From contig CM097888.1 of assembly GCA_044892525.1 (NCBI GenBank), positions 28,520,001 through 28,584,000 on the forward strand: a DNA stretch of 64,000 nucleotides, written 5' to 3'. The DNA is from Schmidtea polychroa. Taxonomy: Eukaryota. The notes beneath the pieces are model-generated. The model was not told the origin of the DNA, did no database searches, and saw only the letters and a program-made list of their open reading frames with translations. A program made the position numbers and the translations under genes. Each line of letters opens with the position of its first letter. Position 1 is the stretch's first letter. Below are positions 40,088-63,870 of this stretch, in pieces.

Positions 40088-40837
40088 TTATTTCTCCCAT
40101 TCAGTGTCGGCGAATAATTCGTCGAGGTTGAAAAACTCGGAAGCGTTCTCTTCCCACATTACGCCAGCGGCTGATATGATTCGCGCTGAGGGTCCCGTTG
40201 TTAGGTCGATGGACACGTGAGAGTTGCCACCGTTGGTTGAGTCCTCTATTGATGGGATGTTTGGCTTGGTAGTGGCGCGTTCGCGCTGTCTCTTCTTGCG
40301 CTCTGCACGAGAGAGTTGTTTTCGCTTGGGTTTGCTTGAAGATGCCACTTGCAGAAGGGTGACTGATACGGATGGACTAGCAGTGGGGGGCTTACTGGTA
40401 CCCGTGATGACAACATCTGGTCGCTTGGGGGACAATTCGGTTTTGACGCAGTCTCGGCACGGTCTCTTGAACGGTGGAGATGGATTCGAGGAAAGGTTGT
40501 GATGAGGCGGAAAGATGTCATCGGCCTCTCGGATGGGAATCTGCACAATTTTTCGGGTCGTAGCCGCCTGCACGTAAACCTTATGCAGTGCTTCGGATTG
40601 TTCTCTGATTAGACTTCTTTGGGCACGGCTCTCAGATATTAGCGCGTCCCGGCAATGCTCGCTACGATCGAGCTTCTTTTGGATCTCCTTCATCCGAGCG
40701 GGACTAAACCATGTCCCTTCCAGCTCGTCGATTTTTCGTTTATATCGACCGATCTGGGCTTGAAGGTCTTTAATCACTGCATTTTTATCTGAGCAGGAGA
40801 AGCAGGGACGTAGAGCTGATTTGTTGTTTGATAACAT
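40088..40837 (-). CDS. 249-aa accessory ORF: CxxC, coiled coil, basic NLS-like stretch, acidic-aromatic C-terminus
   Basis: PCFSC, PCRDC, KPKRKQLSRAERKKRQRER, EFFNLDELFADTEWEK. Strong polypyrimidine acceptor ttttcttctttAG just upstream; AATAAA ~130 nt after the stop. Confidence 0.7.
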   Translation of the reverse strand: MLSNNKSALRPCFSCSDKNAVIKDLQAQIGRYKRKIDELEGTWFSPARMKEIQKKLDRSEHCRDALISESRAQRSLIREQSEALHKVYVQAATTRKIVQIPIREADDIFPPHHNLSSNPSPPFKRPCRDCVKTELSPKRPDVVITGTSKPPTASPSVSVTLLQVASSSKPKRKQLSRAERKKRQRERATTKPNIPSIEDSTNGGNSHVSIDLTTGPSARIISAAGVMWEENASEFFNLDELFADTEWEK

Positions 40838-46520: not shown

Positions 46521-46713
46521 CTCTAAATCATAGACATCGATTAATCTTTTTATTATGAAAAAGGGATTTATTCGTTATTTACTGTTTCTTGGGAAATTTT
46601 CGCATCATTTTTGGGTTTTCGTATTTAGGGTTTTCATACTATTATTATATAATATTTTATTGGTTATATACACCGATATATACAGATTATTATATACAAC
46701 ATTATTCGATTGG

Positions 46714-48102
46714 TTACTCCGTTCTACCCTTCTCCTCTTTCCTCACGGTCATCTTGATATATATGGTATCATTTCTCGCCATATCCTCTACTCTTTGTTG
46801 TGAGATGAACGTAGGTGCTCCTGTTGCTGATCCTTCTTCGTTGAGGGGCCTCTGGTAAGCTATTTGATTCCCCGTTGTTTTGAAGCTTTGCTCATGTATA
46901 CTTTGGTTGTTCATCAGAGTAATATCGATTTTTGCCTGGAACGGCCATTCTAATATTTCGTCGTATTCTCCTTTACATAACAGAAAGAAAATCGAAAAGT
47001 GCGTATCTAATCCGGTTCCGTCCCCGTTGGGATATATCTTCATTTTCATTTTGTACCCATTTTTCCAAGAATGGAATGCAGGACTTGTTATTCTTGTCTC
47101 TTCTCCGGTTTTTGCTTTTCGTATTCTTTCTTTTACTCCCGTTATTTTCCATATGTAGGGTGCTGTTGGGGTTATCTCATTTAGATTTATTTCCCGTATT
47201 TTCTGATGTAGCTCCTTGGCCTGATTATTACTGATTTCTGTTCGGTTTATTTGCATCTTTATGTTTGCTCGGGCTTCTTCGAACGCTTCCCTTTCTTCTA
47301 GTAGTTCTTTGACTAACACCTTCAACGATGTTATCTCTATCTCCATTTGTTTTACTTTCTCTTCGCTTTCTTGTAACGCAGTCGACCACATTTCTGCGTG
47401 AGTTGAAGCATTTTCTACTAAATGATGTGGTAACTCACCTCGGTGTAGTAGTTTCTGACAACCCCATCTACCTAGTACACATGTCATTCTTTTCTTTTCG
47501 CATTCCCTTAGATGCTGTGCCACCTTCATTATTTCCCCTTGGTTACATCCGTTTGGGCATTCCCCACTGAACTCTGCACATACTCTCTCCTCTTGGACAT
47601 TGTGATGTTTGAGGGTGAGATTTATCCACGTATCTATTTCTCCACAGTGTTCACATCTTTCCAATCTCTCTTCACACTGCCTTTGATGCTCTTTTTCTTC
47701 GCTTGCTCGAATGGTTTTATGGCACCTTTCACACTGGCCAATTCTGTACATACATTCTCCCATATGTTGTACTACTTTCCATATTACTCCTTTCCATTCG
47801 CATGGGGCATTTTTGCATCCCAGGTTGGTGTTTAACATATCTTTCACTGCGGCTTTATCCTCGTTAGTGTCTTCTAAACTCGATATTAGTGTCTCTTTAC
47901 ACACCGGGCACCTCTGTGGTCTATTCTTTATTGCTTCACTGATACATTCTTTACATACTCTGCATCCACATTGCGTTTGGTGAGGTTCCTTTAACAACTT
48001 TTCACATATTCCGCACATAACATGTTTGTGTATTCTGATCGTCGTAGATTTTCGGACTTGCTCGACAATCTCTCTGAACTCTTCTCTTTGTCGTTTATCC
48101 AT
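46714..48102 (-). CDS. TRAF: TRAF-family protein (RING - TRAF zinc fingers - coiled coil - MATH), 462 aa, intronless
   Basis: RING CGICEKLLKEPHQTQCGCRVCKECI..CPVC, several CxxC..H..C fingers, MATH YIWKITG..SPAFHSWKNGYKMKMKIYPNGDG..HFSIFFLLCKGEYDEILEWPF..DTIYIKMTV. Confidence 0.93.
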   Translation of the reverse strand: MDKRQREEFREIVEQVRKSTTIRIHKHVMCGICEKLLKEPHQTQCGCRVCKECISEAIKNRPQRCPVCKETLISSLEDTNEDKAAVKDMLNTNLGCKNAPCEWKGVIWKVVQHMGECMYRIGQCERCHKTIRASEEKEHQRQCEERLERCEHCGEIDTWINLTLKHHNVQEERVCAEFSGECPNGCNQGEIMKVAQHLRECEKKRMTCVLGRWGCQKLLHRGELPHHLVENASTHAEMWSTALQESEEKVKQMEIEITSLKVLVKELLEEREAFEEARANIKMQINRTEISNNQAKELHQKIREINLNEITPTAPYIWKITGVKERIRKAKTGEETRITSPAFHSWKNGYKMKMKIYPNGDGTGLDTHFSIFFLLCKGEYDEILEWPFQAKIDITLMNNQSIHEQSFKTTGNQIAYQRPLNEEGSATGAPTFISQQRVEDMARNDTIYIKMTVRKEEKGRTE

Positions 48103-48187
48103 TCTATAATTATATGTACAAATAGTTCTTATCGATACAGGTTCGATATTTTATTTACAATTATTTACATTTTGAGCTAGGTTTGGT

Positions 48188-48707: not shown

Positions 48708-51700
48708 CTATATACGTGAGTTTGGAGGGCGCTGAACGTTCCAGGCCTCCACCCACTGTCCTTGTTTGATATCACTTGGTCGTTTCACTCGATGTTGGAA
48801 GTTTCTGATTCGGGTCATTTCTAGTTCTCCGCGATGTCGTTTATCCTTAATTATTTTTATTGTTCCCCCCGTTATGATTAGGAATGCCCCTGTTATTATT
48901 ATCCCACTGATCCACATCATCTGCTTCACGCTTATACTCTCTGGTTTTTCCTTGTTTGTTAGTGTTGATATCGCTTCTGTACTTTTCTCGTTTCTTCTTT
49001 TGCCATTTCCTTTCATCATTTCTCGTATTCTTGCTATTTCCTCGTTCATACCCTCCTTTGCCATCTTTTGTATTTTTTCCATCTCTTCCTCCGAAACATA
49101 GTTGTCCTGAGCTTCCTCGCCGGTTTTCTTGTGCTTTCCTCCTTCGTCCTTTTCGTCGTGGTTTTTCCTTTTCTTTCCTCTTTTCCCCGGGTATCGTCGG
49201 CATTCTCTTTTTGATTCGTTTCTCCAGATACAAACCGTATATTCCTTCGGGGGCTGCTGCTGCGTCACATATTGATGGCATCTCTCACCCGGTCCTAATC
49301 TTGAAATACAGACTTTGTGCTCTTTTCTTGGTTGGAGCTGCGTTATTACTACTTCGCCACCTTTTCCTAGGTGTACCTCTTTTCCTTTGACGTTCGTTAT
49401 TCTCTTCCCGTCTCGATTTCGGTATGCTTCTTGTATTCTTACTTCTGTTATTGGTTCTGTGGCCTCATTTATCAGTACTAGTTTCTGATACGCTCTAGAC
49501 ATGCATCTTCCTAGTATGCACCTTTCCTTTAAGTCCCATTCTTCCTTTAAATCCCACTGCTGCTCTTGTGCTTGCTTTTTCTTTTCTTGCTTTAGTTCAT
49601 CCTCTTTGCTATCTTGATTCTCCGCTTCTTTGGTTTCTTTTATCGTTCTCGTCCCTCCCTGAGCTGTTACTAACTCTATCATGGTAAGCATAATTATCAT
49701 TAATATCATATTTGTCTCTATTTCTTTGTTAGTGAAAGGTAGGCATACCCTCTGTTTTCCATTATTCGATTTTTCCTCCTCTTTGGTCTTAGTTCCCGGG
49801 CTGTTTCCCTCTCTTTTCGTATCCGAATCCTTGTTTTCCGGTTTACCCTCCTCCGGTTCTCTTTTCTCTTTATCCTCCTTTCGGCCTTTTCCGTTATTGT
49901 CATCGTGTTTATCTCCCCCGCTGTCGTTTAAAATGTCGTCCTCGACATTTATATCGTTCAATAATCTGCGATATGCTGTTAGCACTCTGTTTCTTGCTAA
50001 TTTTGCTTCGAATTCAAACTCCTTTCTGCCCGTTGCGGCATGCCTCTTTCTATTCCATTCTTTAACTAACTCTCTCAATTGCATACGACGATGTTTCCCA
50101 ATTCGTTGTTGCTCGTTCTGATTTTGCGTGAATTTTAGGTCTTCTCTATTTAATACTACTAAAATAATTTTAGGCGTCCCCCCCTTAGTTAGGGTATTCT
50201 TTACCATCGCATTTTCTCCGTTTTCGTAGAATTCGTTTACATTTATCGCATATTTATTATTTTGTGGTACTCTCCAGGTTAATAATAATTTCATTGCTTC
50301 TAGATTTTTCCGTACCGTATTCCATTGAAACTGAGATGTGTTTTTGCACATATTTTCAACTTCTTCTTTTGTCGCATTTTTGCAAATAAATCTGATCATT
50401 TCTAAGTTTGGCTGTATGGTTGCCCAGTCCAAGGTGGAATTTCCTTCATTGGACCTTTCGTCTAGTTTCGATCCTGATTGATGTAGGATGTGGAGTGTTT
50501 TTGGGTGTATTTTCGTTATAGCTGCATACATCATGGCGGTTTCACCTTGTTCATTTTTCGTGTTGGTTTCCTCGCCCATCTCTCCAAGGATTCTCACGAT
50601 CGTTATTGCTCTATTTTCTTTCGCTGCTAGTATTGCTTGTTGTAGGGGTGTTCTGGAATCCTTCGTTACCATCGTAAATGCTCGAGGCAAGAAGGTTTTG
50701 ATTTTCCCGATATCTAAACCCGTGGTTTGATCTCTTGCGTATGTGTGTACGGCTTTTATTATTTTGGACAATATTATTTCGTCTGGCAGCTCTAGCATTT
50801 CCTCAAAGAACACTTCTTTTGCTTTGCGTATTATTGCCTCTTGATCTATACTCATTGATTTGGTTTCGATGACGTTGTTTGTGACCGTTTGGTTCGTTGT
50901 TGACTTTGATTCCCTGGATTTCTCATACCTTATTTTCGTTTTCTTTCCGTTTGGATTATTGATTCGTTCCTCTGCTGTAAGTATTTGGATAATATCCAGG
51001 TAATTCTCGCGGATGTTATTCATTGTGTCCATCATATATAACACACTTACCGTTTCCCAATATTTATTTCGTACTTGGTTAGTAAATTGGAATAGGGATT
51101 TTTCGAATGTGTCGATTCGCCCTTTTGCTAACTGTTCGTCCTTATGATTTGTGAATTTTATTCCTCGTTCTAGTAATTGATTCGGAATTTCGAATAAATG
51201 ATGTCCTTTCATAGCTTCTCTCATCAGCGTGTTCTCTCCTCTCGTGAACGCTTCGTTTACGTTGATCATATAATCGTTTTGAATTGGATTTCTCCATGTA
51301 ATTAATATTCCGGTAATTGTCGTCAGTTTTTCTTTGATCGCTGTTAACAATCCATCATACATGTTTCCGACTTCCCGATTGTCCTCATATGATAGTAGTT
51401 CCATCAATGACGTGAACGCCTCGGTACTTCTCCCTTCGATAGCATGGTGTAGAGCGTTTTTCCGCTCGTGGTCTTGTGTAGTTATTTTCGATCCGGTATC
51501 GAGTAATGCGGTTATAATGTCTTTTGTTTTGCCTCTGTTTGCGGCTATCATTAATGGTGTGTAACCTTGGTTGTTTGTTTGTTCTGTTGATCGCTTGCAG
51601 TCGTGAAATGCTTCTATTGTTTCTAGTATTTGCTCGTTGTTACCTACTTTCATGAGTTTGTGTAATGGCGTGTCTCCGTAATGATCTGTTATTGTAAATA

Positions 51701-54700
51701 ATATTGGCCATTGGCTTTTGACTACTCGCAATAATGGGTGTGTCCTTTCTCTATTTGCATAGTTCTCGATCATCGTCAATAATCCTCCTAATATTTCGAA
51801 ATCTAATCGATCTTTTGCCCATCCAGGTATTCTAATTTTTACCTCTTTTACAATCTTTTCCGCTTCTGATGGTTGGATACCTAATCGTCCAGTGATCGGT
51901 TCTGCGAGTTGTTGCATCATGTTCATTCGGTAGGTTTGCGAACGTGTGGTTAATGTACGGCCTTCTGGTTGACTAGTGGCTGTTTTTGGAATTGATTTGC
52001 ATCGTGCCACGTTTACGTATATTGGTCTGGTAAAGGGGTTATTTACCAATTTCACTCTTACATTAGTTTCGCCTACGAATAAGATCTCATATGGTCCTTT
52101 TCCGTTGCGTTGTAACTTTTTTGTGGTTCCTGGAATTAATTCCGGGGTTTCTATCATTACCCAATCACCTGTTTGGAACGTATGTTGCTTCACGTTTTTC
52201 TTTCGATCGTGTAAATCTTTATAACTTTCCTGGTAGAACTTGATATTTAATCCCGCAGTTTCCCAAATTTCTTGCATTCTTTCCTTGAATTTCGTAACAT
52301 AATCATCGATCTCCATATACTGCGATATCGGTGGTTGGTATTCCAGGTCCATTGGCATATTACATTCTCTTCCGTACATTAATTTGAATGGGCTCATTTT
52401 CGTTGATGCGTGAATCGACATTCTGTACGCCATAAGACATAGGTTTATATATTCGTCCCAATCTCGTTGGTGACGGTCAACGTAGTTTGATAACATTTGT
52501 ATAAGTGTTCCATTAAATCTTTCCGTCATCCCATTGGTTTGAGGGTGGTATGGAGATGTTCTTAGTTTTGCTATTTTGAAGTAATTTGTTACTTCGCTCA
52601 TTATCTCACTCATAAAATTAGTTCCCTGATCGGTTAAGATTTGTTTTGGTGTTCCATATCGGCAACATATTTCTTCTACCAAAATTTTTGCGATTGTTTT
52701 AGCTTTTTGGTCTGGCATCGCGAATGCTTCTGGAAATTTCGTAAGAAAGTCTGTGATCACTAGAATGTAAACGTTTCCTTTATCTGACTCTGGTAGTGGA
52801 CCAACTACGTCCATGGATATCATTGTCATTGGTTCTATTGGTACTGGCATTGGCGTTAAAGGTGCTTTCCATTTCGATCCAGTATTCTTCCTGGTTGCAC
52901 AAGTTAGACAATTTTTTACCCATTCGGTTACATCTTCAGTTAACGTAGGCCAAAAATATTTCTGTTTCATTCTTGCTAACGTCTTTTTCGATGACATATG
53001 TCCTCCCAATCTCCCATCGTGATATTGCGTTAGTAACTCTTTTCGTCGGTTTTCCGGTATACACATTAATCGTTTTTCCCCATCCATTATCAGCAACCAA
53101 TCTTTCTCTATAATATATCGGTGTCGGTGTTTATCCATATGTTCTTTTAATTTTTGGTCTTTCGCATATACATCTGTCTTTCCGGTTTTTACATAATCGA
53201 TAATTTGTTTTAATTCCGCGTCCTCTTGTTGGTCCTTTCGTAATTGACAGAAATCCAAATCTTCCGCTACTATCAAGCATATGCGTTGCATTTCTGAATC
53301 CACCAAATCTGGGAAAATAAATCTTGACATACAATCGGCGTTGGCATTTGCTCTTCCCGCTTTGAATTTTATAAATGGGGAGTATTCTTGCAATTGCATG
53401 GCCCATCGCATCAGTCTACTGGACGCTTCTTTATGTTGCCCTAACCACACTAATGGTTGATGATCTGTGGTTATGCATATCTCATGTCCCCATAGTAAAT
53501 ATCGGAAGTGTTTGATAGCTTGTATTATAGCCAATGCTTCTCGTTCTGTTACCGAATAGTTCTTTTCGTGCTTTTTGAATGTTCGACTGTAATACCCGAT
53601 TACTCTCTCTTTTCCCTCATCGTCTAATTGTCCCAGAATCGCGCCTGCCGCGTACCCGCTTGCATCCGTTGCCAATAGAAATGGCTTCTTAAAATCTGGG
53701 TGTACGAGGATAGGTGCTTCGATTAGTTTATCTCTCAGCGTTTCGAACGCCTGTTGTTGTTCTTTTTCCCAAATGAACGAAATATCCTTCTTTACTAATT
53801 CCTGGATTGGTTTTGCAATTCCTGCATAATTTTTGATAAATTTGCGATAGTATCCGCATAATCCTAGAAATTCCTGAACTTGGGTGACAGTTTTCGGTGC
53901 TGGACATGTTTTTATTTTCTCAATGTTTCTTGGATCTGGCTCCTTTCCTTTAGCTGACACTATGTGTCCTAAAAACGTGACTTTTTCCTTTGCCCAATCG
54001 CATTTTGATGGTTTGAGTTTGAGTTTCCACTGTCTTAATCTAATAAATACGTTTCGGATATCTTCCAGATGTTGTTCAAATGTCGCTGAATAGATTAGTA
54101 AATCATCAATATATACCATACATTGTTTGATTCCATGGGTGACAAAGTTCATACACCGTTGAAATGATGCTGGTGCGTTGGTCAGTCCAAATGGCATTTT
54201 TCTGAATTGATATAGATCTCGTCCCAACGTGAAAGCTGTTTTCTCTTTGTCCTCATCTTTGACTTTAATCTGCCAGTATCCACTTTTTAGATCTAAAGAA
54301 GTAAAATATGCTGCCCCTTGCAACATCAATAACATCTCATTGATGTCCGGCAATGGATAGGTATCTCTCTTGGTCACTGCGTTTAACTTCCGATAATCGA
54401 TACAGAATCGTTGGGTGCCATCTTTCTTTTTCACCATGACCACTGGGAATTGCCAAGGTGAGCAACTTGGTTCGATTACTTTTGCGTCCAGCATCTTTTG
54501 TACTTCTGCTTCGGCTATTTCTTTTTGCATTTCTGCTAGCTTGTATGGTCTTAATGCAATTGGAGTTTCATCTATGAGGGGTATTGCATGTAGGGTAACA
54601 TCGCCTGTACCCAAGTCTAAGTCTGAGATGGCGAATATATCTTTATATTCTACCAACAATCGGTGTAATTTTTTCTTTTCATCATTCGTCAACAACATAC

Positions 54701-57700
54701 TATCTATTGTCCATAATTCATCATCTTTGATCATCTCGTTGGTCACTTTCGGTAATTCTATGTCCATCATTGGGGTCAATCTTCCCAATTTTTCGTTCTC
54801 ATAAATGATTTTGTCTTCCTCTTCGAAATTCGTGATGTTGAGCGGTATCACTCCTTCTTGGTTTATTGTGATTATTTCTCTTGCGAGTGGTAATTCTCGT
54901 CGCTTTTCGAATGACTGGCTTGGTTCAAAGATAACTTCTCCTTCCATACCCGTATCCACTTTTATCTGACAAATCATCTGCGATTTTGCTGGTACTATTA
55001 TTTTTTCTGGACATCTGATGACTGCATTCATTTTGCATATTCTACCGGTTTTGTCTTTTAAACACATGGTTGTTAAGTCAATTACGACTTCTTTTAACAA
55101 TTCTGGCATCAAATCCGTTCCGATTATGCATGGTACGCTAAGTTTTGGTATTACTGCCAAATACGTTTCAATTTCGTTGTCCTGGTATCTCAATGTAGTC
55201 CACCATCTTCCGACCACGTCCACTGTTTCTTTACTACATGCTATGATGTGAATTGTTGTTGATTCGATATCCTTCCAGTGTTTACTGGGGATTTGATTAA
55301 TCGCTATCGCTGATACATTAGCTCCTGTGTCTATCATAGCATTGGTTTCTTGACCATTGATTTGGATCATGACTGTCACTGCTGGACCTCCAGGTAGACT
55401 CATTGCTGCGATTGTTCTTACGTCATCTGCTTGATCTACACTTTTGGTACGTCGTGTTGGCATATAATGCATACCGGGTTGACTCGGTAATTGCGGATAC
55501 ATATTTTGTGTCATGGTCAAAGCTGCTTGTGGTCCCACGATATCCGGTGGTATATAGCTTCCATTGGCGATCCAGGTGTTTGTCTTTTCCTTTTCCCAAT
55601 ATGGTGCCGTTTCCATTGGTTTTTCGTTTGGGTTTCTGTTTGGATAAAGACATTTATCGTTCCCGTTATCATCGTCGTCACTATCGCTGTTAGATGATTG
55701 GCTTCTAAATCGGTCCAAGAATTTTGGCTTATTCTTTTTCAATTGTCGTCTTGTTGCTTCATCGTACATTACTTTCCGGAATCGTCTGCCTACTTCCTCG
55801 TCGGTTCCTTTAATCTTTGTTAATATTTTAATCAATCGCTTTATCCGATGAATGTCTTTTGAGTGACCATGTAATACCATGGTTTTAGCTAAAAATGGTA
55901 AGAAGCCTACTATCATTTTCCAGTTAACTTTCTTTTCCCGCTTGTATATATCAAAACAAGCTAACATTTGTGTTAGTATTACTCTGACTATCTGAATTAT
56001 GAGTATGATCCCTAATATCCCGGCCATCATTTGTCCAAAAACTAAGAATCTTCCCCACATTGCTTTCATCATGTTTGACGTAGCTTGTTGAAAATGGTCT
56101 GGCGATAATAGCAGCTCGTAATTCGGGCCTGATTGATAATTTGTTCCCCCCGTTATTGTAACCATATTTGACAAAATGGATTCTCGTCTGGCTGGAAAGA
56201 GTACGTTAAGTCGTGCTGTTTCTAGGTCTTCTGGGGAATACATACCACCGTTTGACACGTCTATAGGTTTGAAATCCAGCTCTGTGGCGAGTTCTATTAA
56301 TCCAAATTTCTTGGGTTCCTCGGATATGGTTTTTCCCGGTAACATCATCCATTTCCCATCGGGTCTTTCATACAAAGGTCCGTATGCATTAGAACAGTTA
56401 AAGAGATTTGGGTAGAAACCCACTGGATTCATAATTCTAGTGACTGGTTGGACGAATCGATTTTGTCCTTTATAACGGATTTCTAATTCATTTGCACATC
56501 TCTTTTCGGGTAGTATGGATTTTTCTGGCATTCGTGCATACGTCTTGGTACACTGGTATGTGTACATCACTTCTCCTACCATTCTACCAAAGTGTCCATC
56601 TGGTAATGGGAGTGATGGCATCGTGTTATCTGGGTGCGTTATCGCAATAGCTAGCTTTGTTTTCAATATTTCTTTATTCAATGAACAATCGTTTTGTATC
56701 AGATCGTAATATACTTTTTGCAAGGTCGTTTGTCCGCGATGAAATAGAAAATCCATTTTATTATTTGCATATAAGTATAGTTTTACGTCCTCCGTTGCTA
56801 TCTTTCCCACTGCTCTATCGATTATTTGTCTCGACATATAGATGCCTGCGTAATTGGTTTTATATACTATACTGTCACATTTGGTGGTTTCTTTCTCTTT
56901 GATAAATCTCATACCTAGATCTGGATCGTCTGTGATTAATGCTGTTGGTGTCTTCTGCGTTGAAAGTCTCTTTTCTCTGGGAGATGGTGGCATTGGTTTT
57001 CCATTTCGCATTCTCACTCTGTCGTTTCCATCCTCGTCGTTCTCGTTCTCATATATTTCTCCTGTTACTTCATTGAACAAAGCACTTTTTAACAGTTGGA
57101 GTCGGCATTTTTGGGTATTAGCTTCATAGATTATAGTTGATACTCCTGTCCTGCATACGTTTTCTGTAGCTTTACACGCTGGGTTGGTCTTCATTTGGTA
57201 ATTATTTGCGTCAAATTGCGCTTCGTATTCTTTTAATTCGACCGTGTAAGACTCGATCACTACAACTCCCGATATTACCTCGCCTCGGATCGTATACGTC
57301 CCCCCGTTACATGACCCATCTGATGATTTTACTTTTCCGGATACGTAAACACTTTCGGTTTTAATCATTCCAGTTTGTCCGTGAATTGTCACTCCGTTAT
57401 GCATTTTTAGCGCTCCGGTTCTAAATAGCTCTTTACAATCCTCTCGTTGTATTGATACGATTTCTTTATCCAGACCAGGTAGTATAAGAGTCGAATACGA
57501 ATATTGTCCACAGTAATATGCGAGTACCTTTTTTGATACTACGCATTCCCTTGCTTGCGTTCTGATGAAATCTGATTCTTGATATACATGGTAAGTAACT
57601 TTTGTTCTCACGATGTCCAATTTGTTGGGTGAGGCTTGTCTGCATTCTTCTATGTCTCTCAATGAGTATTTATCCCTCATTATCATATTATCACAATCGT

Positions 57701-60700
57701 AGATGGTGAAACCTGTTGCTCCACTTGTGCACAACATCCATATCATCATAGTCATCATTAACGAATTTATTGATGCTTTTCTGCTTGCGGGATCTTTCAT
57801 CGGTAGTTCCCATTCTAGTTCATTTAACAGTTTTTTCAATCTAACTTGCATCGACCTTTCTTGCTCATTTTTCCGTGGCGCTTGTATCAGTCTTTTCCAT
57901 CCTCCGGCACGAATAATATGTGGTTCAATAGTATTCTCTATGATTGAAACGGTCATTTCCACATGATTTGCAAACTGTTTATTTGGTATTTTCCTCGCAG
58001 CTAGTCCCATCAAATTATACATCAAATAAGTGATTACCACTAGGTGATGTTCGTCATCATTTGCATTTGTCGTGAGCTGCTCAATCACTCTCTTTGTTTC
58101 GTCCCAATCCGTTTTGGTGGTTTTCGTTTTCTCTTTGATTAACTTTGGGATTATCCCCGAAATGGTGTGCCATAATTGTCTAGCTTCCGTACTGGCTACT
58201 TTCCGTTGCCACAAACGTCGAAGTTGTGGGTTTGTTATTATTAACATATCTTTTAACAATTCTCGTATCCATTTTTCTCCTCTTTCGATCGTTGGTTGGG
58301 CTTCCTTTAGATCCCATACTATTTTATCCAATTTTTCTAATCGAACTTGCCCTTGTTCTTGCTTTAATTGTTCTTTGGTTTTAAACTCAGACTTTTCTCC
58401 TTGTTTCTTAGGTCTTCCTTTTGCCCGTTTTTCCATCATCGTTCCGGCTTCTCTGGTATTTTCGTAATTCGGATTTCTTTCGTTATCCGTTCTGGGTAAT
58501 GAGCTATCGTTATTTCTTAGCCACTCATTCCATTCATCTATTATTTTATCGGTTTGACCTTCTGGTGTTACTTTCGTTGGTTCTCTTTGCTTCTGGAATT
58601 GTTCATCCGTTTCGGTTTCCGTAGTATTGTCGATGATTTCTTTGATGTTTAGTTTCGTGGGTTGTTGATAACTCGTTGATGGCTGGTTGTTAGTCCACAT
58701 TTCGGCTCCTGTCGGCCATCTCACTAATAGCGGTGATCTTTCTCCTGATTCATCGTCACTATCTTCCAGGATTATCTCTTCAACTTCTTCAGTTTCATTA
58801 GATTTACTTGGTGCTTTGTTCGGACTTGGAGTACTCAAGCTGCCTTTTGTTGGTTTAATAATTTTACTTTTCCTTTTTAACGGTTTCCCCAACGTTTCTG
58901 CCATTGTTAACACATTTGTCTCTTCCAATCTCATGGGTGTTATTCCGACGTCTGCATTATCGTCTAGTGATTTTCCGAATAGTTGCAGATGGAATGGAGT
59001 TTCATATGCTAATTTCTTTTTTAATTCTCTAATTTTTGTTGTTGGATGCACCTCTAGTTCCTCGATGCTCTTGTCCGGATACTTGATTCGGATGTGATAC
59101 CTCTCCTGGGTGTCTTGTGCCCATTCCTGATTTCTCCATTTTCGAATAATTTGTTCTAGCTGTTCTGGATACCATTCATTATATTGCCGGTATTCCTCTA
59201 TTGCCTTTGCCATTCCTCTCAGATTGTGGATATTCTCTGATGTTTTTAAGATGATATTAGCCAACGCTACTACCTGGCGTTTTTGATTTTTCGCTCCCAT
59301 TGCTAAAATATCGCCTAATTGTTTATATCTTTCTTTCTCTTCTCGTTCTCTTGCTTCCGTCGCTTCCTCGCCGTCCATATCAGCATATTCACGTTCCTTT
59401 TTCCTCATTGCATGAATATGTCTCGCTTCATTTTCGCTTTCTGATGTGACATCCGTCTCGCTTTCGTCATCTGATGTCTGTCCCCTTGCTTCCTCTTCAT
59501 ATTCTGGGGGTTCCTCTTCTTCTTCCTCCGATTCACTTTCTGTCTCACCAATGTCTGTTTCTACGAAGATTCCTTTCCGGATTTCCCATTCCTTATTTTC
59601 TGCATTCCACACTCTTTCCCATGGGGTTCGTCTGCAGGATCTGGTATTTAATTTCGTGATTTTTCCTTGTAGCTCTTTTTCTTTTAACCATTGTTGGTGG
59701 ATTTCAATTATTTCTGTAGATTTTTGATACAACGTTTTCATCCGGTCTCGTATTTCTTTTTGATATGTTACATCTCTTGTTCGGAATTCATCCATTGGTA
59801 CTATCCTGATTATCTGATGATTGTCCCACATACCCATTTCGCTTAACGAGGTGTCGTCCTCCGCTCGTAATATTATCTTATCGTACATCATGACTACATC
59901 ATCCACCATACCATCACTACTTTCGCTACGTACCTTTTCCGTTATCTCTTGGTTTATTTTTGATACCAAGTCATCCACTGTACTCTGATTGCTCATTTTT
60001 ATTCGTCGTTTTTCTTCGTTCGGTAACCATATGGTTATTTCCAACCTCTGTGGCTGGGTTTCTTTTAACCTTCCATATTTGTGGATCAAATTTATGGTTC
60101 TCCAATCACTCATTCGGAGCATTTCTGTATCTCGCAACCGGCTCATTAGTTCGTACATGGCTGGGGCTCGTCTGGTGATGAGTAAATCCCAGTTGTCTTC
60201 TACTTGTTCTTGAATTTGTTTGATCAGCTTATCCAGGTTTCGTCTCAGAGTACATTGTTTTATTTGTTCTAATTTCAATTTGATATTAAAATCATATTCT
60301 GCCTTGGCATCTTTAGCCCAATCGTAAATGTTGGCTGGTTGTTTTTCTTTATGCAACTTCAGTATTTGCGTTTCTCCTGGCCATATTAGTGCATCTACTA
60401 AGTGCATATCTGGTTTGATCTGGTCTCCTTGGTATTGATACAGGTATTCTTTCTTTCTCGAACTTCCCAAATGTTCTCGTATCCAATCGAAAAGTTCGTC
60501 GGTGACTGTATTTTTTATCCACATTCTTTCAAGTCCTCTACTCGTTCCAATTTTTATTACATACCGCGTGGTATCGGCCTGCTTCATTTTTTCCATATAA
60601 TTTTTTATAATTGATTTTTCCTCGTTTGGTATTAGATCTTTCTCGTTTCTTTCCAATTTCATCACTTTTTGCACGAATCGCCTGAATGGTATTACGTCGA

Positions 60701-62561
60701 TGAACTCTTGGTTTCTCACTACTACTGGGAGTATTTCGGCTACCTGTTTTATCGCTTCCTCCCTTGCTTTTCTCAACTTTATTTCGATATCTTCGTCTTC
60801 ACTTTCACTGGTTATCTCGTTTCCGCTTTCTTCCTCTTTGATTTCCCCTTTTGGGGGTTCGCTTATTTCATTCGGCTGTAGTATTTCTCCACCCAAACTA
60901 CTTACATAATCTTCTTCTTCGTCTGACGATGCTACATCTTTTGTCCTTTTCATCATATTGATTTGCAAGTTTCTCATCCTTGGTACTCTCTTTAGTTTCT
61001 TTCTTTCGAATATTGTTGTTTCTTCTGATTCTGATTCTTGTAGCATTTGGTGGTTTAGTTGACTGGTTTGTTCCTTGCTCTTGTTATTTTCATCTTCTGT
61101 CTCGGTTTTCGCTTTATTATGTTCTTTTTCGATTTTATCCTTTATCTTTTTCCAGAATATTTTCTGAATTCTCTGGTTTCCTTTTAAAATCGTGGTTGAA
61201 TTCTCTGTTTTCATTTCCGTTGTTATTTCTTTTGCCTTTTCTGGTTCAGTCATGGGTACTACCCTTGGGCTTTTCCCGTAATTGTAGCAATACTGGCTCT
61301 TCATGTCTTTTACTAACTTCATCATATTTATTCGCAATGGTTGTTCTTGTCGTTGTTGGTTGCGTTCTTGTTTTATCCTCTCTTCCTCGGCCTGTAGCCT
61401 TTGCCATTCTTGTACATGTTGATGCACTTCATAATTGTTGAGATTTTCGGTACTCCTCATCATACGTATATTCTGGGTTTGTTGTGGTGCTGATTCTTGT
61501 CTTGGTCTCATCATTTGTTGCATCATCTGTTTCATCTGCGAAATTTCCTGCATAACGTTCATTTGTTTTCCTTCGTTAGGGTTACTTTGTCGTTGCGGAT
61601 TCGCTATATAATTATTATTTCGCTGTGGTGGTCGTTGTTGTTGGCCCCTTTCTCGGCAATCTCTGGAGATGTGACCTGGCTGACCACAGTTAAAACAGCC
61701 TCGCAATTGGCATACATTTTCGGTATGTCCACGCCGTCCGCAACGATTACAATTTGAATTTCTATAACAATCTCTGTCCCAGTGTCCTGGTTTACCGCAT
61801 GTTCGGCACTGCTTGTTATCGTTCATATTTCGCCGATTATTGAAATTGTTCTCATTATTCGGGTTGTTACGATTACCATTATTCCCGTTTGATCGTCCTT
61901 GTGGTGGTTTGAAAATTTGGTGCGCTCCTGGTATAAATTGATTCATTTTCGGTTCTTGATTGTTGTTATCTCCGTTATCCGCTTTCGCTATTGCTGTCGC
62001 TATCCTTCCCTCCTCTTGCATAATATTCATTTGAGCTGGAAGGTGGAGCTCGCATCTTGTAGCCCAATCTATGGCTTCCTCTAATGTTTTGCACATTTGA
62101 CAACCTACTGAGGCTCTTACTTCTTCTCGGCGTAATCCCTCTATGAAATAACCGATCAGATTTTCTTCGGGTAATTTTCCATTCATTGCTTTCTTCGCTA
62201 ATCTCCGCAATTCACTGGCATATAATGTTATCGATTCGTTTGCTCTTTGTTTCCTATTTGCTAGTTCGCCCAACGCCTGGTTGATTGGCTTACTGGCTCC
62301 GAAGGTTTTCTTCAGGAATGTTTTAATATCTTCCCACTTTTCTAATTTCGTGTCTCTCTCTTTAGCTTCTAAATATACCTCTAATGCACTATCGCACAAA
62401 AACAACGGCATCCTTTTACTAATTGCTTCGGGTGTCCATCCACACACGGTGATATAAACTTCAAAATTAGTTATGAACGTTGCTAGCTTGTTTGCATTTC
62501 CGTTGAACGGTTCTCCTCTGAATTTCTCTTTATACTCGTCGGTTTTTGCGACATTCGTCAT
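48708..62561 (-). CDS. 4617-aa Gag-UBLx3-Bcl2-Env-PR-RT-RH-IN-ANK-membrane polyprotein
   Basis: Single uninterrupted frame; domain motifs are listed in the sub-features below. Confidence 0.95.
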   Translation of the reverse strand: MTNVAKTDEYKEKFRGEPFNGNANKLATFITNFEVYITVCGWTPEAISKRMPLFLCDSALEVYLEAKERDTKLEKWEDIKTFLKKTFGASKPINQALGELANRKQRANESITLYASELRRLAKKAMNGKLPEENLIGYFIEGLRREEVRASVGCQMCKTLEEAIDWATRCELHLPAQMNIMQEEGRIATAIAKADNGDNNNQEPKMNQFIPGAHQIFKPPQGRSNGNNGNRNNPNNENNFNNRRNMNDNKQCRTCGKPGHWDRDCYRNSNCNRCGRRGHTENVCQLRGCFNCGQPGHISRDCRERGQQQRPPQRNNNYIANPQRQSNPNEGKQMNVMQEISQMKQMMQQMMRPRQESAPQQTQNIRMMRSTENLNNYEVHQHVQEWQRLQAEEERIKQERNQQRQEQPLRINMMKLVKDMKSQYCYNYGKSPRVVPMTEPEKAKEITTEMKTENSTTILKGNQRIQKIFWKKIKDKIEKEHNKAKTETEDENNKSKEQTSQLNHQMLQESESEETTIFERKKLKRVPRMRNLQINMMKRTKDVASSDEEEDYVSSLGGEILQPNEISEPPKGEIKEEESGNEITSESEDEDIEIKLRKAREEAIKQVAEILPVVVRNQEFIDVIPFRRFVQKVMKLERNEKDLIPNEEKSIIKNYMEKMKQADTTRYVIKIGTSRGLERMWIKNTVTDELFDWIREHLGSSRKKEYLYQYQGDQIKPDMHLVDALIWPGETQILKLHKEKQPANIYDWAKDAKAEYDFNIKLKLEQIKQCTLRRNLDKLIKQIQEQVEDNWDLLITRRAPAMYELMSRLRDTEMLRMSDWRTINLIHKYGRLKETQPQRLEITIWLPNEEKRRIKMSNQSTVDDLVSKINQEITEKVRSESSDGMVDDVVMMYDKIILRAEDDTSLSEMGMWDNHQIIRIVPMDEFRTRDVTYQKEIRDRMKTLYQKSTEIIEIHQQWLKEKELQGKITKLNTRSCRRTPWERVWNAENKEWEIRKGIFVETDIGETESESEEEEEEPPEYEEEARGQTSDDESETDVTSESENEARHIHAMRKKEREYADMDGEEATEAREREEKERYKQLGDILAMGAKNQKRQVVALANIILKTSENIHNLRGMAKAIEEYRQYNEWYPEQLEQIIRKWRNQEWAQDTQERYHIRIKYPDKSIEELEVHPTTKIRELKKKLAYETPFHLQLFGKSLDDNADVGITPMRLEETNVLTMAETLGKPLKRKSKIIKPTKGSLSTPSPNKAPSKSNETEEVEEIILEDSDDESGERSPLLVRWPTGAEMWTNNQPSTSYQQPTKLNIKEIIDNTTETETDEQFQKQREPTKVTPEGQTDKIIDEWNEWLRNNDSSLPRTDNERNPNYENTREAGTMMEKRAKGRPKKQGEKSEFKTKEQLKQEQGQVRLEKLDKIVWDLKEAQPTIERGEKWIRELLKDMLIITNPQLRRLWQRKVASTEARQLWHTISGIIPKLIKEKTKTTKTDWDETKRVIEQLTTNANDDEHHLVVITYLMYNLMGLAARKIPNKQFANHVEMTVSIIENTIEPHIIRAGGWKRLIQAPRKNEQERSMQVRLKKLLNELEWELPMKDPASRKASINSLMMTMMIWMLCTSGATGFTIYDCDNMIMRDKYSLRDIEECRQASPNKLDIVRTKVTYHVYQESDFIRTQARECVVSKKVLAYYCGQYSYSTLILPGLDKEIVSIQREDCKELFRTGALKMHNGVTIHGQTGMIKTESVYVSGKVKSSDGSCNGGTYTIRGEVISGVVVIESYTVELKEYEAQFDANNYQMKTNPACKATENVCRTGVSTIIYEANTQKCRLQLLKSALFNEVTGEIYENENDEDGNDRVRMRNGKPMPPSPREKRLSTQKTPTALITDDPDLGMRFIKEKETTKCDSIVYKTNYAGIYMSRQIIDRAVGKIATEDVKLYLYANNKMDFLFHRGQTTLQKVYYDLIQNDCSLNKEILKTKLAIAITHPDNTMPSLPLPDGHFGRMVGEVMYTYQCTKTYARMPEKSILPEKRCANELEIRYKGQNRFVQPVTRIMNPVGFYPNLFNCSNAYGPLYERPDGKWMMLPGKTISEEPKKFGLIELATELDFKPIDVSNGGMYSPEDLETARLNVLFPARRESILSNMVTITGGTNYQSGPNYELLLSPDHFQQATSNMMKAMWGRFLVFGQMMAGILGIILIIQIVRVILTQMLACFDIYKREKKVNWKMIVGFLPFLAKTMVLHGHSKDIHRIKRLIKILTKIKGTDEEVGRRFRKVMYDEATRRQLKKNKPKFLDRFRSQSSNSDSDDDDNGNDKCLYPNRNPNEKPMETAPYWEKEKTNTWIANGSYIPPDIVGPQAALTMTQNMYPQLPSQPGMHYMPTRRTKSVDQADDVRTIAAMSLPGGPAVTVMIQINGQETNAMIDTGANVSAIAINQIPSKHWKDIESTTIHIIACSKETVDVVGRWWTTLRYQDNEIETYLAVIPKLSVPCIIGTDLMPELLKEVVIDLTTMCLKDKTGRICKMNAVIRCPEKIIVPAKSQMICQIKVDTGMEGEVIFEPSQSFEKRRELPLAREIITINQEGVIPLNITNFEEEDKIIYENEKLGRLTPMMDIELPKVTNEMIKDDELWTIDSMLLTNDEKKKLHRLLVEYKDIFAISDLDLGTGDVTLHAIPLIDETPIALRPYKLAEMQKEIAEAEVQKMLDAKVIEPSCSPWQFPVVMVKKKDGTQRFCIDYRKLNAVTKRDTYPLPDINEMLLMLQGAAYFTSLDLKSGYWQIKVKDEDKEKTAFTLGRDLYQFRKMPFGLTNAPASFQRCMNFVTHGIKQCMVYIDDLLIYSATFEQHLEDIRNVFIRLRQWKLKLKPSKCDWAKEKVTFLGHIVSAKGKEPDPRNIEKIKTCPAPKTVTQVQEFLGLCGYYRKFIKNYAGIAKPIQELVKKDISFIWEKEQQQAFETLRDKLIEAPILVHPDFKKPFLLATDASGYAAGAILGQLDDEGKERVIGYYSRTFKKHEKNYSVTEREALAIIQAIKHFRYLLWGHEICITTDHQPLVWLGQHKEASSRLMRWAMQLQEYSPFIKFKAGRANANADCMSRFIFPDLVDSEMQRICLIVAEDLDFCQLRKDQQEDAELKQIIDYVKTGKTDVYAKDQKLKEHMDKHRHRYIIEKDWLLIMDGEKRLMCIPENRRKELLTQYHDGRLGGHMSSKKTLARMKQKYFWPTLTEDVTEWVKNCLTCATRKNTGSKWKAPLTPMPVPIEPMTMISMDVVGPLPESDKGNVYILVITDFLTKFPEAFAMPDQKAKTIAKILVEEICCRYGTPKQILTDQGTNFMSEIMSEVTNYFKIAKLRTSPYHPQTNGMTERFNGTLIQMLSNYVDRHQRDWDEYINLCLMAYRMSIHASTKMSPFKLMYGRECNMPMDLEYQPPISQYMEIDDYVTKFKERMQEIWETAGLNIKFYQESYKDLHDRKKNVKQHTFQTGDWVMIETPELIPGTTKKLQRNGKGPYEILFVGETNVRVKLVNNPFTRPIYVNVARCKSIPKTATSQPEGRTLTTRSQTYRMNMMQQLAEPITGRLGIQPSEAEKIVKEVKIRIPGWAKDRLDFEILGGLLTMIENYANRERTHPLLRVVKSQWPILFTITDHYGDTPLHKLMKVGNNEQILETIEAFHDCKRSTEQTNNQGYTPLMIAANRGKTKDIITALLDTGSKITTQDHERKNALHHAIEGRSTEAFTSLMELLSYEDNREVGNMYDGLLTAIKEKLTTITGILITWRNPIQNDYMINVNEAFTRGENTLMREAMKGHHLFEIPNQLLERGIKFTNHKDEQLAKGRIDTFEKSLFQFTNQVRNKYWETVSVLYMMDTMNNIRENYLDIIQILTAEERINNPNGKKTKIRYEKSRESKSTTNQTVTNNVIETKSMSIDQEAIIRKAKEVFFEEMLELPDEIILSKIIKAVHTYARDQTTGLDIGKIKTFLPRAFTMVTKDSRTPLQQAILAAKENRAITIVRILGEMGEETNTKNEQGETAMMYAAITKIHPKTLHILHQSGSKLDERSNEGNSTLDWATIQPNLEMIRFICKNATKEEVENMCKNTSQFQWNTVRKNLEAMKLLLTWRVPQNNKYAINVNEFYENGENAMVKNTLTKGGTPKIILVVLNREDLKFTQNQNEQQRIGKHRRMQLRELVKEWNRKRHAATGRKEFEFEAKLARNRVLTAYRRLLNDINVEDDILNDSGGDKHDDNNGKGRKEDKEKREPEEGKPENKDSDTKREGNSPGTKTKEEEKSNNGKQRVCLPFTNKEIETNMILMIIMLTMIELVTAQGGTRTIKETKEAENQDSKEDELKQEKKKQAQEQQWDLKEEWDLKERCILGRCMSRAYQKLVLINEATEPITEVRIQEAYRNRDGKRITNVKGKEVHLGKGGEVVITQLQPRKEHKVCISRLGPGERCHQYVTQQQPPKEYTVCIWRNESKRECRRYPGKRGKKRKNHDEKDEGGKHKKTGEEAQDNYVSEEEMEKIQKMAKEGMNEEIARIREMMKGNGKRRNEKSTEAISTLTNKEKPESISVKQMMWISGIIITGAFLIITGGTIKIIKDKRHRGELEMTRIRNFQHRVKRPSDIKQGQWVEAWNVQRPPNSRI
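50200..51700 (-). other. Two ankyrin-repeat blocks (~51230-51700 and ~50200-50670)
   Basis: GDTPLHKL, GYTPLMIAA, KNALHHAI; RTPLQQAI, GETAMMYAA, GNSTLDWAT. Confidence 0.88.
51990..53100 (-). other. Integrase (HHCC + DDE + C-terminal domain)
   Basis: HDGRLGGH..CLTC; MDVVGPL, TDQGTNF, HPQTNGMTERFN. Confidence 0.97.
53330..54600 (-). other. Reverse transcriptase and RNase H (Ty3/gypsy type)
   Basis: RPYK, SPWQFPVVMVKKKDG..RFCIDYRKLN, LDLKSGYWQI, MPFGLTNAPASFQR, YIDD (54102-54113); TDASG, YSVTEREALAI, TDHQPL, NANADCMSR. Confidence 0.98.
55080..55385 (-). other. Retropepsin aspartic protease
   Basis: AMIDTGANVSAI (D codon at 55331-55329) and CIIGTDLM. Confidence 0.95.
55950..57770 (-). other. 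Signal peptide + chuvirus (Jingchuvirales)-type glycoprotein ectodomain + TM anchor
   Basis: MMTMMIWMLCTSGATG/FTIYDC, CDSIVYKTNY, LYANNKMDF, QNDCSLNK, HFGRMVGEVMYTYQC, CANEL..FVQPVTRI..CS, GMYSPEDL..VLFPARR, MWGRFLVFGQMMAGILGIILII. Confidence 0.8.
57885..58300 (-). other. Bcl-2-like domain
   Basis: IIENTIEPHIIRAGGWKRLI matches BH2 (Bcl-xL YLNDHLEPWIQENGGWDTFV). It is preceded by a hydrophobic helix at BH1/alpha5 spacing, lacking the NWGR signature. Confidence 0.65.
58900..60575 (-). other. Three ubiquitin-like domains (~60345-60575, ~59795-60047, ~58900-59103)
   Basis: Beta-grasp patterns, e.g. YHIRIKYPDKSIEELEVHPTTKIRELKKKL..LQLFGKSLDD; LEITIWLPNEEKRRIKMSNQSTVDDLVSKI..DDTSLSEMGM; YQYQGDQIKPD. 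None ends in GG. Confidence 0.7.
61655..61812 (-). other. Three CCHC zinc knuckles (nucleocapsid)
   Basis: CRTCGKPGHWDRDC, CNRCGRRGHTENVC, CFNCGQPGHISRDC. Confidence 0.97.
62040..62540 (-). other. Gag capsid-like domain
   Basis: EPFNGN..FITNFE..GW..LFLCDSAL..WEDIKTFLKKTF..RKQRANESITLYASELRRLA..FIEGLR..KTLEEAI. Confidence 0.85.
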
Positions 62562-63870
62562 GATTGGTGTTCTAGGTTCGTCTGTTTCTTTTAAATTGTC
62601 TAACGATGTGACTAAACTTTGGGCTGATAATTCTTCGGTTGACGTTGCTAAACTATTAGTGATATCGGACAGACTTTCTCTACTTCGAGATCGACTAGGG
62701 GTATATCCGAGATTTTCTTGGTCAAATATGGGTACTTGATTGGTTCTTCTGGATCCTTGTGATATTCCTCTTTGATGTTTAATGGATCGTCCTCTTTTGA
62801 GTTGTTGTAATTCGTCTCCTGAAAATAATACGTCTCCTGGCTTACTAGAAGATCTAAGATTGGGTTTATCCGTGATTCCTTTCTTACGCTTCTTGGTAAT
62901 TAGCGGCTATTGAATCGGACGCGTTCGGTTCTGATTGTGTTTCCTTCGATAAATATTCTGTATGAATCTGCTACTGAGATCCTGAGGAGATTTACTAATC
63001 CTTGGCAGATGGCTGCTAATACTTCTTCCGTTCTGGAGTCTTCCGGTTGCTGTGTCTCTCGGTGCGGGTTCTGAATGGATTTATCCTTGGTTGATTGTCG
63101 ATTTTCTTCGAATTCCTTTTGTGCAGGTTCTGGATTGTCTTGGTTGGCTGGATTGGCTTGATATCTAAAATGAAAAAATGATCTCGTGTTGCATTTGCTT
63201 ACACGACTTCATCATTCTTTCTACAACATTCAAAAACAGACACCTTTTAGGTTTCTGTTTGTGCTTCCTTTATCTTTTGTGAAATCCTTTCTGCGGGTTA
63301 TAATATCCCATCAGCCCGTATTTTCCGTCGATTTTAAATTATCTATATGGGGTAGTAACAATTATCTATAAAGTCGTAATAATTATCTATTCGTTATCAA
63401 TTATAGTAAAAATAGGTCGTTGTCGGTCTCTGCTTATTACCCCCCTTTCATTTTCCTAATCCTTTTGCGCTGTTGTCGCTATTTTACTTTTCATATTCAC
63501 TATTATTACGCTCGGTTCTACTCTGGAACCAATAAAATGCATTTTCCCGGTTTAACAAAAAAAAATATTCCGTAGAGTTTCTCTACTTCACTGGGATCCC
63601 TTTAATTAGTTAGTTACTTTCCTCTTTACTCATTATCATCATTTCATCTATTCTTTATTTTCTATTGTCTCTTTAATTCGTTTCCTTCTTCCCTTTCCTT
63701 TTTCATTATAATCTTATTTTCTTTTCCACGAGCTCGTTTATTTCCTCTCTAAACTCGAATTTTCAAAATTACATTCAATTTGTTCTAGCTAGCTTTAATA
63801 TTCCATATCAATAGTAATCTAAATATTATCTCATTGTAGCTTAACTGCTATCTCTCGCTTTTCTAGGCCT

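What the first reader, a model, noticed from the sequence alone, without database searches (positions are those of the whole stretch)
57885..58300. Bcl-2-like domain inside a retrotransposon polyprotein
IIENTIEPHIIRAGGWKRLI closely resembles BH2 (EPWIQENGGW), and the upstream helices have Bcl-2-like spacing. NWGR is replaced by DEHH, as in divergent viral Bcl-2 proteins. It lies immediately before the env signal sequence, which could act as its C-terminal membrane anchor after cleavage, like the tail anchor of cellular Bcl-2 (inference). Viral Bcl-2 mimics are established for herpes-, adeno-, pox- and asfarviruses; I am not aware of one in an LTR retrotransposon.
Basis: partly seen in the sequence, partly recalled or inferred. 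Interest (0 to 1): 0.85.

Follow-up and report, generated by a model that had tools for sequence, protein, structure and literature searches.

The report
Bcl-2 fold in planarian retroelement
A giant virus-like jumping gene in what is likely a planarian genome carries a much-changed copy of the cell-death regulator Bcl-2 just ahead of its envelope protein; the cargo is real and already noted in print for these "Burro" elements, and it likely helps keep host cells alive, which is untested.

Summary
The domain is real, but it is not new. Window 57867-58295 (minus strand) encodes a Bcl-2-fold domain inside the 4,732-aa Gag-Env-Pol frame of a 30.3-kb LTR element with identical LTRs. Alone it scores only Pfam E 0.014-0.08. 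A model folded from retroelement sequences only matches Bcl-2 proteins (Z 13.2; all 31 rows with Z>=8 are Bcl-2-fold), and the family profile finds Bcl-xL (E 1e-5). Four more families in this genome, and relatives in metagenomes, carry it just before the env signal peptide. It is under purifying selection (dN/dS about 0.02 against a sister subfamily). A 2019 review already reports a BCL2-like motif ahead of env in planarian Burro elements, and this scan found the same on other copies. Corrections: NWGR maps to DDEH, not DEHH; 38 residues separate BH2 from a weakly hydrophobic signal peptide. Added here: the model puts the element's own next helix into the BH3 groove, like BAX helix 9 (Z 14.8; prediction only). 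Most likely an anti-death decoy working through an altered groove (about 45%); a non-apoptotic scaffold is a serious rival.

The parts
57867..58295 (-). Bcl-2-fold domain, polyprotein aa 1538-1680 (counted stop to stop)
   Evidence: model residues 16-158 align to Bcl-2 structures, Z 13.2, rmsd 2.8, 137 residues; coordinates
58047..58058 (-). DDEH, the residues at the place of BH1 NWGR
   Evidence: alignments; profile-profile
57897..57926 (-). BH2-like motif EPHIIRAGGW (first Trp replaced by His)
   Evidence: sequence; last Trp kept in 21 of 22 rows, second Gly in 22 of 22
57807..57869 (-). amphipathic helix after the domain, predicted to lie in the BH3 groove like BAX helix 9; seen only in this family and its BIR-bearing sister
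   Evidence: model helix 158-178, pLDDT 58-69; model 16-179 superposes on BAX 14-192, Z 14.8; 11 of 33 columns invariant in 4 rows
57711..57782 (-). likely internal signal peptide of Env (basic start, short hydrophobic core, then FTIYDC); possible membrane anchor of the upstream product
   Evidence: same place in all 5 families and 7 library proteins; aligns with the start of PF24664 in relatives; inference, no signal predictor run
55941..57710 (-). Env, gB-type fusion glycoprotein ectodomain and transmembrane helix (55974-56030)
   Evidence: PF24664 E 2.2e-70; KD 2.53
58407..58427 (-). basic GRP motif (AT-hook-like; label recalled) about 40 residues before the domain, shared by several families
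58887..60602 (-). up to three ubiquitin-like segments (aa about 780-855, 955-1040, 1270-1340) and acidic linkers
   Evidence: third segment PF00240 E 0.0027; first two have no ubiquitin hit in Pfam but match the UBL of relative P0009 weakly
60951..60962 (-). last strong copy of the [IM]N[MIV]M motif before the domain (aa 649-652); candidate site of the element's protease
   Evidence: 5 copies against 0.19 expected, 0 of 500 shuffles, motif chosen after seeing it; kept in the sister family
48708..62906 (-). single 4,732-aa frame: Gag, 3 zinc knuckles, accessory region, Bcl-2-like, Env, protease, RT, RNase H, integrase, ankyrin repeats
46714..48150 (-). TRAF-like ORF (RING, coiled coil, MATH) of the same element
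   Evidence: PF21355 E 2e-27, RING E 9e-5; 30% identical to the ORF at the same place in the sister family
39551..43663 (-). 3' LTR, 4,113 bp, TG...CA; identical to the 5' LTR, which lies beyond the window (L021 1716-5828); 4-bp target duplication CTAA

Best explanation
This is a Bcl-2-fold domain carried in the polyprotein of a giant env-bearing Ty3/gypsy (Burro-type) element and kept under purifying selection, and it likely acts as an anti-death decoy that keeps the host cell alive while the element makes particles. Steps: (1) an ancestor of the whole clade captured a cellular Bcl-2 gene once (single side of the tree shown; donor unresolved); (2) the domain is made as part of the Gag-side polyprotein (shown by the frame); (3) the Env signal peptide sends Env into the ER and, once cut on its lumenal side, would leave the upstream product held at the membrane with the domain in the cytosol (inferred); (4) the element's protease would free a product of about 1,080 residues, aa 652-1732, with UBL segments and the domain (inferred from a repeated motif); (5) the domain would bind host Bak/Bax-type or BH3-only proteins through an altered groove, as NWGR-less poxviral proteins do (inferred, untested); in this family its own next helix may plug the groove until displaced (predicted).
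For: Fold: top rows are Hydra Bcl-2-4 and ASFV A179L (Z 13.2), and NF-kB-type poxviral folds rank lower (A52 8.6, A46 7.5, B14 6.2). Same place in 5 families of this genome and 7 of 16 library hits. Env and domain trees agree in all 3 resolved groups. dN/dS about 0.02 in this family, 0.11-0.40 in three others; pooled pN/pS 0.15. A basic residue stays at the NWGR Arg place in 17 of 22 rows. By eye no BH3 L-x-x-x-G-D signature in helix 2, which argues against a Bax/Bak-type killer. The BIR-bearing sister family is likely Burro1, whose IAP is said to protect stem cells (PMC13465017 passages citing Lee et al. 2026); this family lacks that ORF (no tblastn hit). Planarians have Bak/Bcl-2 and cytochrome c release; M11L sequesters Bax/Bak without sequence likeness (PMC7022251 passages).
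Against: BH1 Trp is absent in 22 of 22 rows and the Gly is kept in 1 of 22; this family has His for Arg. PMC8998228 (passage) holds that loss of that Gly makes a working BH3 groove unlikely. The groove is predicted to be filled by the protein's own helix. Selection on the domain is no stronger than on the flanking linkers (pooled 0.15 against 0.17 and 0.18; Env 0.09), so it shows a needed protein, not this function. A fold gives no function. The signal peptide points to the ER and is weakly hydrophobic. Foldseek E-values never reached 0.001.
Confidence: 0.45

Rival explanations
1. The fold is reused as a non-apoptotic signalling scaffold, like vaccinia A52, B14, A46 or K7, perhaps with the element's TRAF-like protein, to damp innate signalling.
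For: BH1 and BH3 signatures lost; groove predicted closed; TRAF-like ORF, UBL segments and ankyrin repeats in the same element; precedent in PMC7022251.
Against: Those poxviral proteins rank well below cellular and anti-apoptotic viral Bcl-2. BH2 GGW is kept. No TRAF-like ORF was seen in the stretches read from families C and D (not whole elements).
Confidence: 0.22
2. The domain has become a structural part of the particle: a matrix-like adaptor that ties the Gag-side polyprotein to the membrane where Env is inserted.
For: Fixed place directly before the Env signal peptide in every relative with context, while other cargo (BIR, TRAF, ankyrin) comes and goes; no matrix domain was found before Gag; co-inherited with Env.
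Against: Candidate protease sites at aa 293-652 would part it from capsid and nucleocapsid; the place may only reflect where a tail-anchored gene could be captured; no precedent known to me (recall).
Confidence: 0.2
3. It is a latent BAX-like pore former, held shut by its own helix and used to open membranes for release.
For: The longer model is closest to inactive BAX with helix 9 in the groove (Z 14.8, 161 residues).
Against: No BH3 signature by eye; the helix is amphipathic and charged, not a membrane anchor (KD -1.0 to -0.4); it is missing in families C-E; AlphaFold may copy BAX for any helix after helix 8; catfish BAX aligned only to residue 159.
Confidence: 0.08
4. The likeness to Bcl-2 is chance: a helical bundle with one GGW.
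For: Single-sequence scores are at noise level; helical bundles can reach Z near 13 by arrangement alone (tool note).
Against: The first 36 rows are all Bcl-2-fold and the best unrelated row is Z 6.2; profile hits to Bcl-xL and to 4 cellular-type Bcl-2 proteins among 1.8 billion; HHalign 97%.
Confidence: 0.02

Closest known systems
[quoted passage not shown] 2018; seen only as described in PMC6431247 section 7)
   Same: Over 30 kb with LTRs; one giant ORF with Gag, three zinc knuckles, Ubi/SUMO-like, BCL2-like, in-frame Env, PR, RT, RH, IN, ankyrin; MATH/TRAF cargo.
   Different: ORF 4,732 aa (4,873 given there); TRAF is a separate downstream ORF; no BIR ORF. Which Burro number it is could not be told: the original paper is not held.
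GAG-ENV-POL errantiviruses with HSV/gB-type Env of Platyhelminthes, Smed_errantivirus_1-6 (Chary & Hayashi 2026, PMC13524379; abstract, passages, supplement rows)
   Same: Gene order and Env type. By eye, family D here is near-identical to no. 2, family C close to no. 3, and the window's Env is nearest to no. 5.
   Different: 'Bcl' occurs 0 times in the main text and in the 7 supplements held; the window's Env is clearly not identical to any of the six listed Env rows (by eye).
Burro1 B-IAP (Lee et al., Dev Cell 2026; not held, seen only as cited in PMC13465017)
   Same: Apoptosis-related cargo in a planarian giant retroelement.
   Different: That is a RING+BIR protein shown to work; this is a Bcl-2 fold inside the polyprotein. 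Whether that paper treats the Bcl-2-like domain I could not see.
Multi-motif Bcl-2 family (PF00452) and viral Bcl-2 proteins (A179L, BHRF1, M11L; A52/B14/A46)
   Same: Eight-helix fold over about 137 residues, BH1-BH2 spacing, BH2 GGW.
   Different: No NWGR, no BH3 signature, 8-17% identity; embedded in a polyprotein; a signal peptide in place of a tail anchor.

Membership tests
Bcl-2 fold | helical bundle around a central hydrophobic helix 5, over the whole domain | tested here: met
   two models, pLDDT 70.7 and 71.6; Z 13.2 and 13.4, rmsd 2.8 and 2.5, 137 residues
Pfam Bcl-2 (PF00452) | score at or over the curated cut-off, 31.4 bits | tested here: not met
   14-16 bits for the window; 26-30 bits for families C and E; some family C copies and P0003 reach it
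Multi-motif Bcl-2 proteins | BH1 NWGR | tested here: not met
   DDEH; Trp 0 of 22, Gly 1 of 22, K/R 17 of 22 rows
Multi-motif Bcl-2 proteins | BH2 W-I-x-x-x-G-G-W | tested here: met
   HIIRAGGW; first Trp is His here, Trp in 15 of 22 rows
Pro-apoptotic Bax/Bak | BH3 signature in helix 2 | tested here: not met
   helix 51-61 and on reads EARQLWHTISGIIPKL; no Gly-Asp pair at the BH3 place, by eye
Multi-motif Bcl-2 proteins | C-terminal membrane anchor | tested here: inconclusive
   only the Env signal peptide: KD 1.23 here, 1.96-2.43 in families C-E; 44-72 residues from GGW to the Env start; cleavage unknown
Anti-apoptotic viral Bcl-2 | binds BH3 motifs and blocks Bax/Bak | not testable with these tools
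   needs binding and rescue assays
Burro-type giant LTR elements | over 30 kb, LTRs, single Gag-Env-Pol frame with accessory domains, many copies | tested here: met
   30,278 bp, LTRs 4,113 bp identical, TSD; domains; 150 of 150 scored matches at 94-100%
Burro1 / GYPSM1 | BIR (IAP) cargo | tested here: not met
   no BIR in the window's ORFs; the sister's BIR ORF has no tblastn match in the window
Burro-2, -3 or -4 | sequence identity to the deposited element | not testable with these tools
   Grohme et al. 2018 not held

The most novel reading that the evidence does not exclude
The element encodes a switchable Bcl-2: its own helix plugs the BH3 groove as helix 9 does in resting BAX, the Env signal peptide holds it at the ER, and processing or a host BH3 protein opens it, so that a retroelement ties control of host cell death to the maturation of its own particles.
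Probability: 0.15. Interest if true: 0.7.

Novelty: already known. Interest (0 to 1): 0.32.

Why it matters
The presence of the domain is in print, so the finding itself adds little. What this check adds is modest: structural support from an alignment free of cellular Bcl-2, proof that the domain is old, clade-wide core cargo under purifying selection rather than a one-off capture, exact borders for expression, and two testable ideas (a self-plugged groove; a 1,080-residue processed product). If the domain blocks cell death, a young family with at least 150 near-identical copies and no IAP would offer a second route, beside Burro1's IAP, by which these elements touch stem-cell survival in a regeneration model.

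Tried and rejected
Single-sequence searches found nothing: PDB, word-index protein searches (weak evidence by the tool's own note). Foldseek gave no E<=0.001 though its top rows were Bcl-2. The complex job meant to test the helix in the groove was not available, nor the protein atlas. Expression: no RNA holder listed; contigs of runs only guessed to be RNA cover the stretch but prove nothing. A protease site at the start of the signal peptide (INSL, aa 1713) looked likely at first; scored in two families it ranks 40 of 3,859, far under the strong sites (3.9 against 12.8-18.9), so I do not claim it. The helix aa 1678-1710 has no sequence match to BH3 peptides in the PDB. Donor gene: the tree joins the clade with L033, L044 and P0014 at only 84/84, and the Bcl-xL-like gene L025 as sister is not rejected (p-AU 0.245). 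No BH3 exon was found on the + strand near the Bax-like exons. No ubiquitin-tagged Bcl-2-like host gene near L033 or L035. Papers: Grohme 2018 and Lee 2026 not held; a search for the CED-9/Bcl-2 glycine mutants gave 0 papers, so that parallel is left out; searches for a functional study of the domain listed none.

Full report
The element. The finding lies in a 4,732-aa open frame, 48708-62906 on the minus strand. Pfam gives, in order, retrotransposon Gag, three zinc knuckles, a weak Bcl-2 hit at aa 1599-1670, a Monjiviricetes-type fusion glycoprotein (E 2.2e-70), protease, RT, RNase H, integrase and ankyrin repeats; a TRAF-like ORF follows. The 3' LTR is 39551-43663; its identical 4,113-bp twin lies just beyond the window (L021 1716-5828), with TG...CA ends and a CTAA target duplication, so the element spans 30,278 bp and is a very recent insertion. 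A search of the genome (781 Mb, four large contigs holding most hits) scored 150 of 922 candidates, all 94-100% identical over the 217-aa query; by hand count about 59 of the 150 keep the 4,732-aa frame. The domain is identical in 20 of 20 fetched top copies. The host is likely Schmidtea mediterranea (inference: genome size, and by-eye near-identity of a sister family to Smed_errantivirus_2).

Is the observation more than chance? Not from this sequence alone: 14-16 bits against a cut-off of 31.4, level with a false ribosomal L17 hit, and no PDB match. I therefore collected relatives without using cellular Bcl-2 sequences. Genome searches with PF00452, PF24664 and PF00653 led to four more families (B: L070, L073; C: L052 and kin; D: L066, L069; E: L067, L068), each with a W/Y-I-x-x-x-G-G-W motif 44-72 residues before the Env start. 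Family C was found by the Bcl-2 model itself, so its score is not independent; B, D and E were found by BIR or Env, and of these D and E score E 2.6e-3 to 0.014 and 1.2e-5, B nothing. The 12-row profile finds Bcl-xL at E 9.8e-6. Among 1.84 billion proteins it finds 16: 7 with the domain followed by a signal peptide and Env, 1 with Gag and ubiquitin upstream, 3 short pieces without context, 4 cellular-type Bcl-2 proteins over the Pfam cut-off, and 1 false repeat. None of the 10 looked up has a name, so the host range is unknown.

Fold. AlphaFold2 on the 12-row alignment gives pLDDT 70.7, pTM 0.68. Against 48,161 PDB representatives the first 36 rows are Bcl-2-fold proteins, top Z 13.2 (rmsd 2.8, 137 residues; Hydra Bcl-2-4, ASFV A179L); the best unrelated row is Z 6.2. 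A second model on 22 rows agrees. Foldseek ranks the same family first but with E only 0.03-0.1.

Motifs. NWGR aligns with DDEH. Over 22 retroelement rows the Trp is never kept, the Gly once, and the Arg place holds K or R in 17, His in this family's 2 rows and Val in 3; BH2 keeps GW in 21-22 rows; a Tyr at the Bcl-xL F146 place is kept in 20. Helix 2 shows no BH3 signature by eye. PMC8998228 (passages) says that loss of the NWGR Gly makes a working groove unlikely and may mark another function; PMC7022251 (passages) says that M11L, with no sequence likeness, still sequesters Bax and Bak, and that A52, B14, A46 and K7 use the fold on NF-kB. So the motifs do not settle function.

History and selection. 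In a 29-row tree the 16 retroelement domains form one side of a branch (95/97); domain and Env trees agree in the three resolved groups. This fits one old capture. The donor is unresolved. Host genes such as L033 have a splice donor right after GGW; the element has no intron there, as expected of capture through RNA (inference). Against a sister subfamily (L064) the 143 domain codons show 13.7 of 336 non-synonymous and 67.3 of 93 synonymous sites changed (dN/dS about 0.02, dS saturated); families B, C, D give 0.11, 0.12-0.16, 0.40; pooled pN/pS is 0.15, no lower than the flanks (0.17, 0.18) and higher than Env (0.09) (one or two pairs per family).

Topology and processing. After BH2 come a charged amphipathic helix (aa 1680-1700), then a basic stretch and a short hydrophobic core ending at ATG/FTIYDC, which I read as Env's internal signal peptide; Env's transmembrane helix (aa 2293-2311) would return the enzymes to the cytosol (inference). 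The motif [IM]N[MIV]M occurs 5 times (0.19 expected, 0 of 500 shuffles; chosen after seeing it) at aa 293, 449, 526, 649 and 3661, that is after capsid, after the knuckles and after integrase; scoring in two families adds aa 480 and shows no strong site between aa 649 and Env. I take these as candidate protease sites; the motif misses the protease's own borders, so other sites may exist.

The helix in the groove. With the tail included, the best structural matches become full-length resting BAX: model 16-179 on BAX 14-192, Z 14.8, rmsd 3.1, 161 residues (Foldseek). So the model lays aa 1680-1701 where BAX helix 9 lies. The helix has pLDDT 58-69, is kept in families A and B only, and AlphaFold may simply be copying BAX; no control could be run. 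It stays a prediction. A word search of this scan's notes found no earlier mention.

What is known. PMC6431247 section 7 (read whole) reports a BCL2-like motif in Burro-2, -3 and -4, citing Grohme et al. 2018, UBL before it and in-frame Env after it, and calls for experiments. PMC13524379 (abstract, passages, supplement rows) catalogues the GAG-ENV-POL clade without naming Bcl-2. Lee et al. 2026 showed a role for Burro1's IAP (second-hand). I found no functional study of this domain in searches; the two key primary papers were not held. Four earlier notes of this scan reached the same verdict on other copies; I had given that reading before opening them.

Verdict. Observation confirmed; Bcl-2 fold shown by prediction and profiles; not a member of the canonical NWGR-bearing group; presence already known; function open, anti-death decoy most likely (0.45). 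Interest 0.32.

Noticed in passing
window 48849-49709 (-), polyprotein aa 4400-4686: A second signal-like and transmembrane pair (KD 1.78 and 1.94) around a Cys-bearing segment at the end of the polyprotein: likely a second type I membrane protein; no convincing Pfam hit.
   Followed up: partly
window 46714-48150 (-): Full TRAF-like protein (RING, zinc fingers, coiled coil, MATH) as its own ORF; in the sister family a BIR ORF follows it, here it does not.
   Followed up: partly
window 43889-46574 (-) and 40088-40846 (-): Three coiled-coil-rich ORFs of 369, 258 and 222 aa, two with weak matches in the sister family, and a 252-aa ORF inside the LTR; no Pfam family.
   Followed up: no
window 60951-62030 and 51915-51926 (-): Repeated [IM]N[MIV]M motif at domain borders, a likely recognition site of the element's protease.
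   Followed up: partly
L064 5763-6398 (G000:C1:139.95 Mb): A sister subfamily (4,811-aa frame) 94% identical in protein but near saturation at synonymous sites: two long-separated, both constrained lineages.
   Followed up: partly
L044 1405-2988; L037-L051: Many copies of short Bcl-2 genes, one set next to a TBP-like ORF; earlier notes place them in Mavericks. A second, separate route of Bcl-2 capture by mobile elements in this genome.
   Followed up: partly
L022-L028 (G000:C4:89.9-90.8 Mb): Seven near-identical copies of a Bcl-xL-like gene with an intact NWGR in one region.
   Followed up: no
L021 1-283 and 1690-1714; window 63871-64000: 74-bp tandem array in the 5' untranslated region; the bases next to the 5' LTR look like a tRNA-Pro primer site (label recalled, not tested).
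   Followed up: no
window 12296-14248 (+); 24560-25510 (-); 30386-30889 (+): Outside the element: a 650-aa transposase-like ORF with a Spin-doc zinc finger, an intronless linker histone H1 with KKVVKDSKVEKE repeats, and a fragment that looks like a Maverick DNA polymerase (no Pfam hit; label by eye).
   Followed up: no
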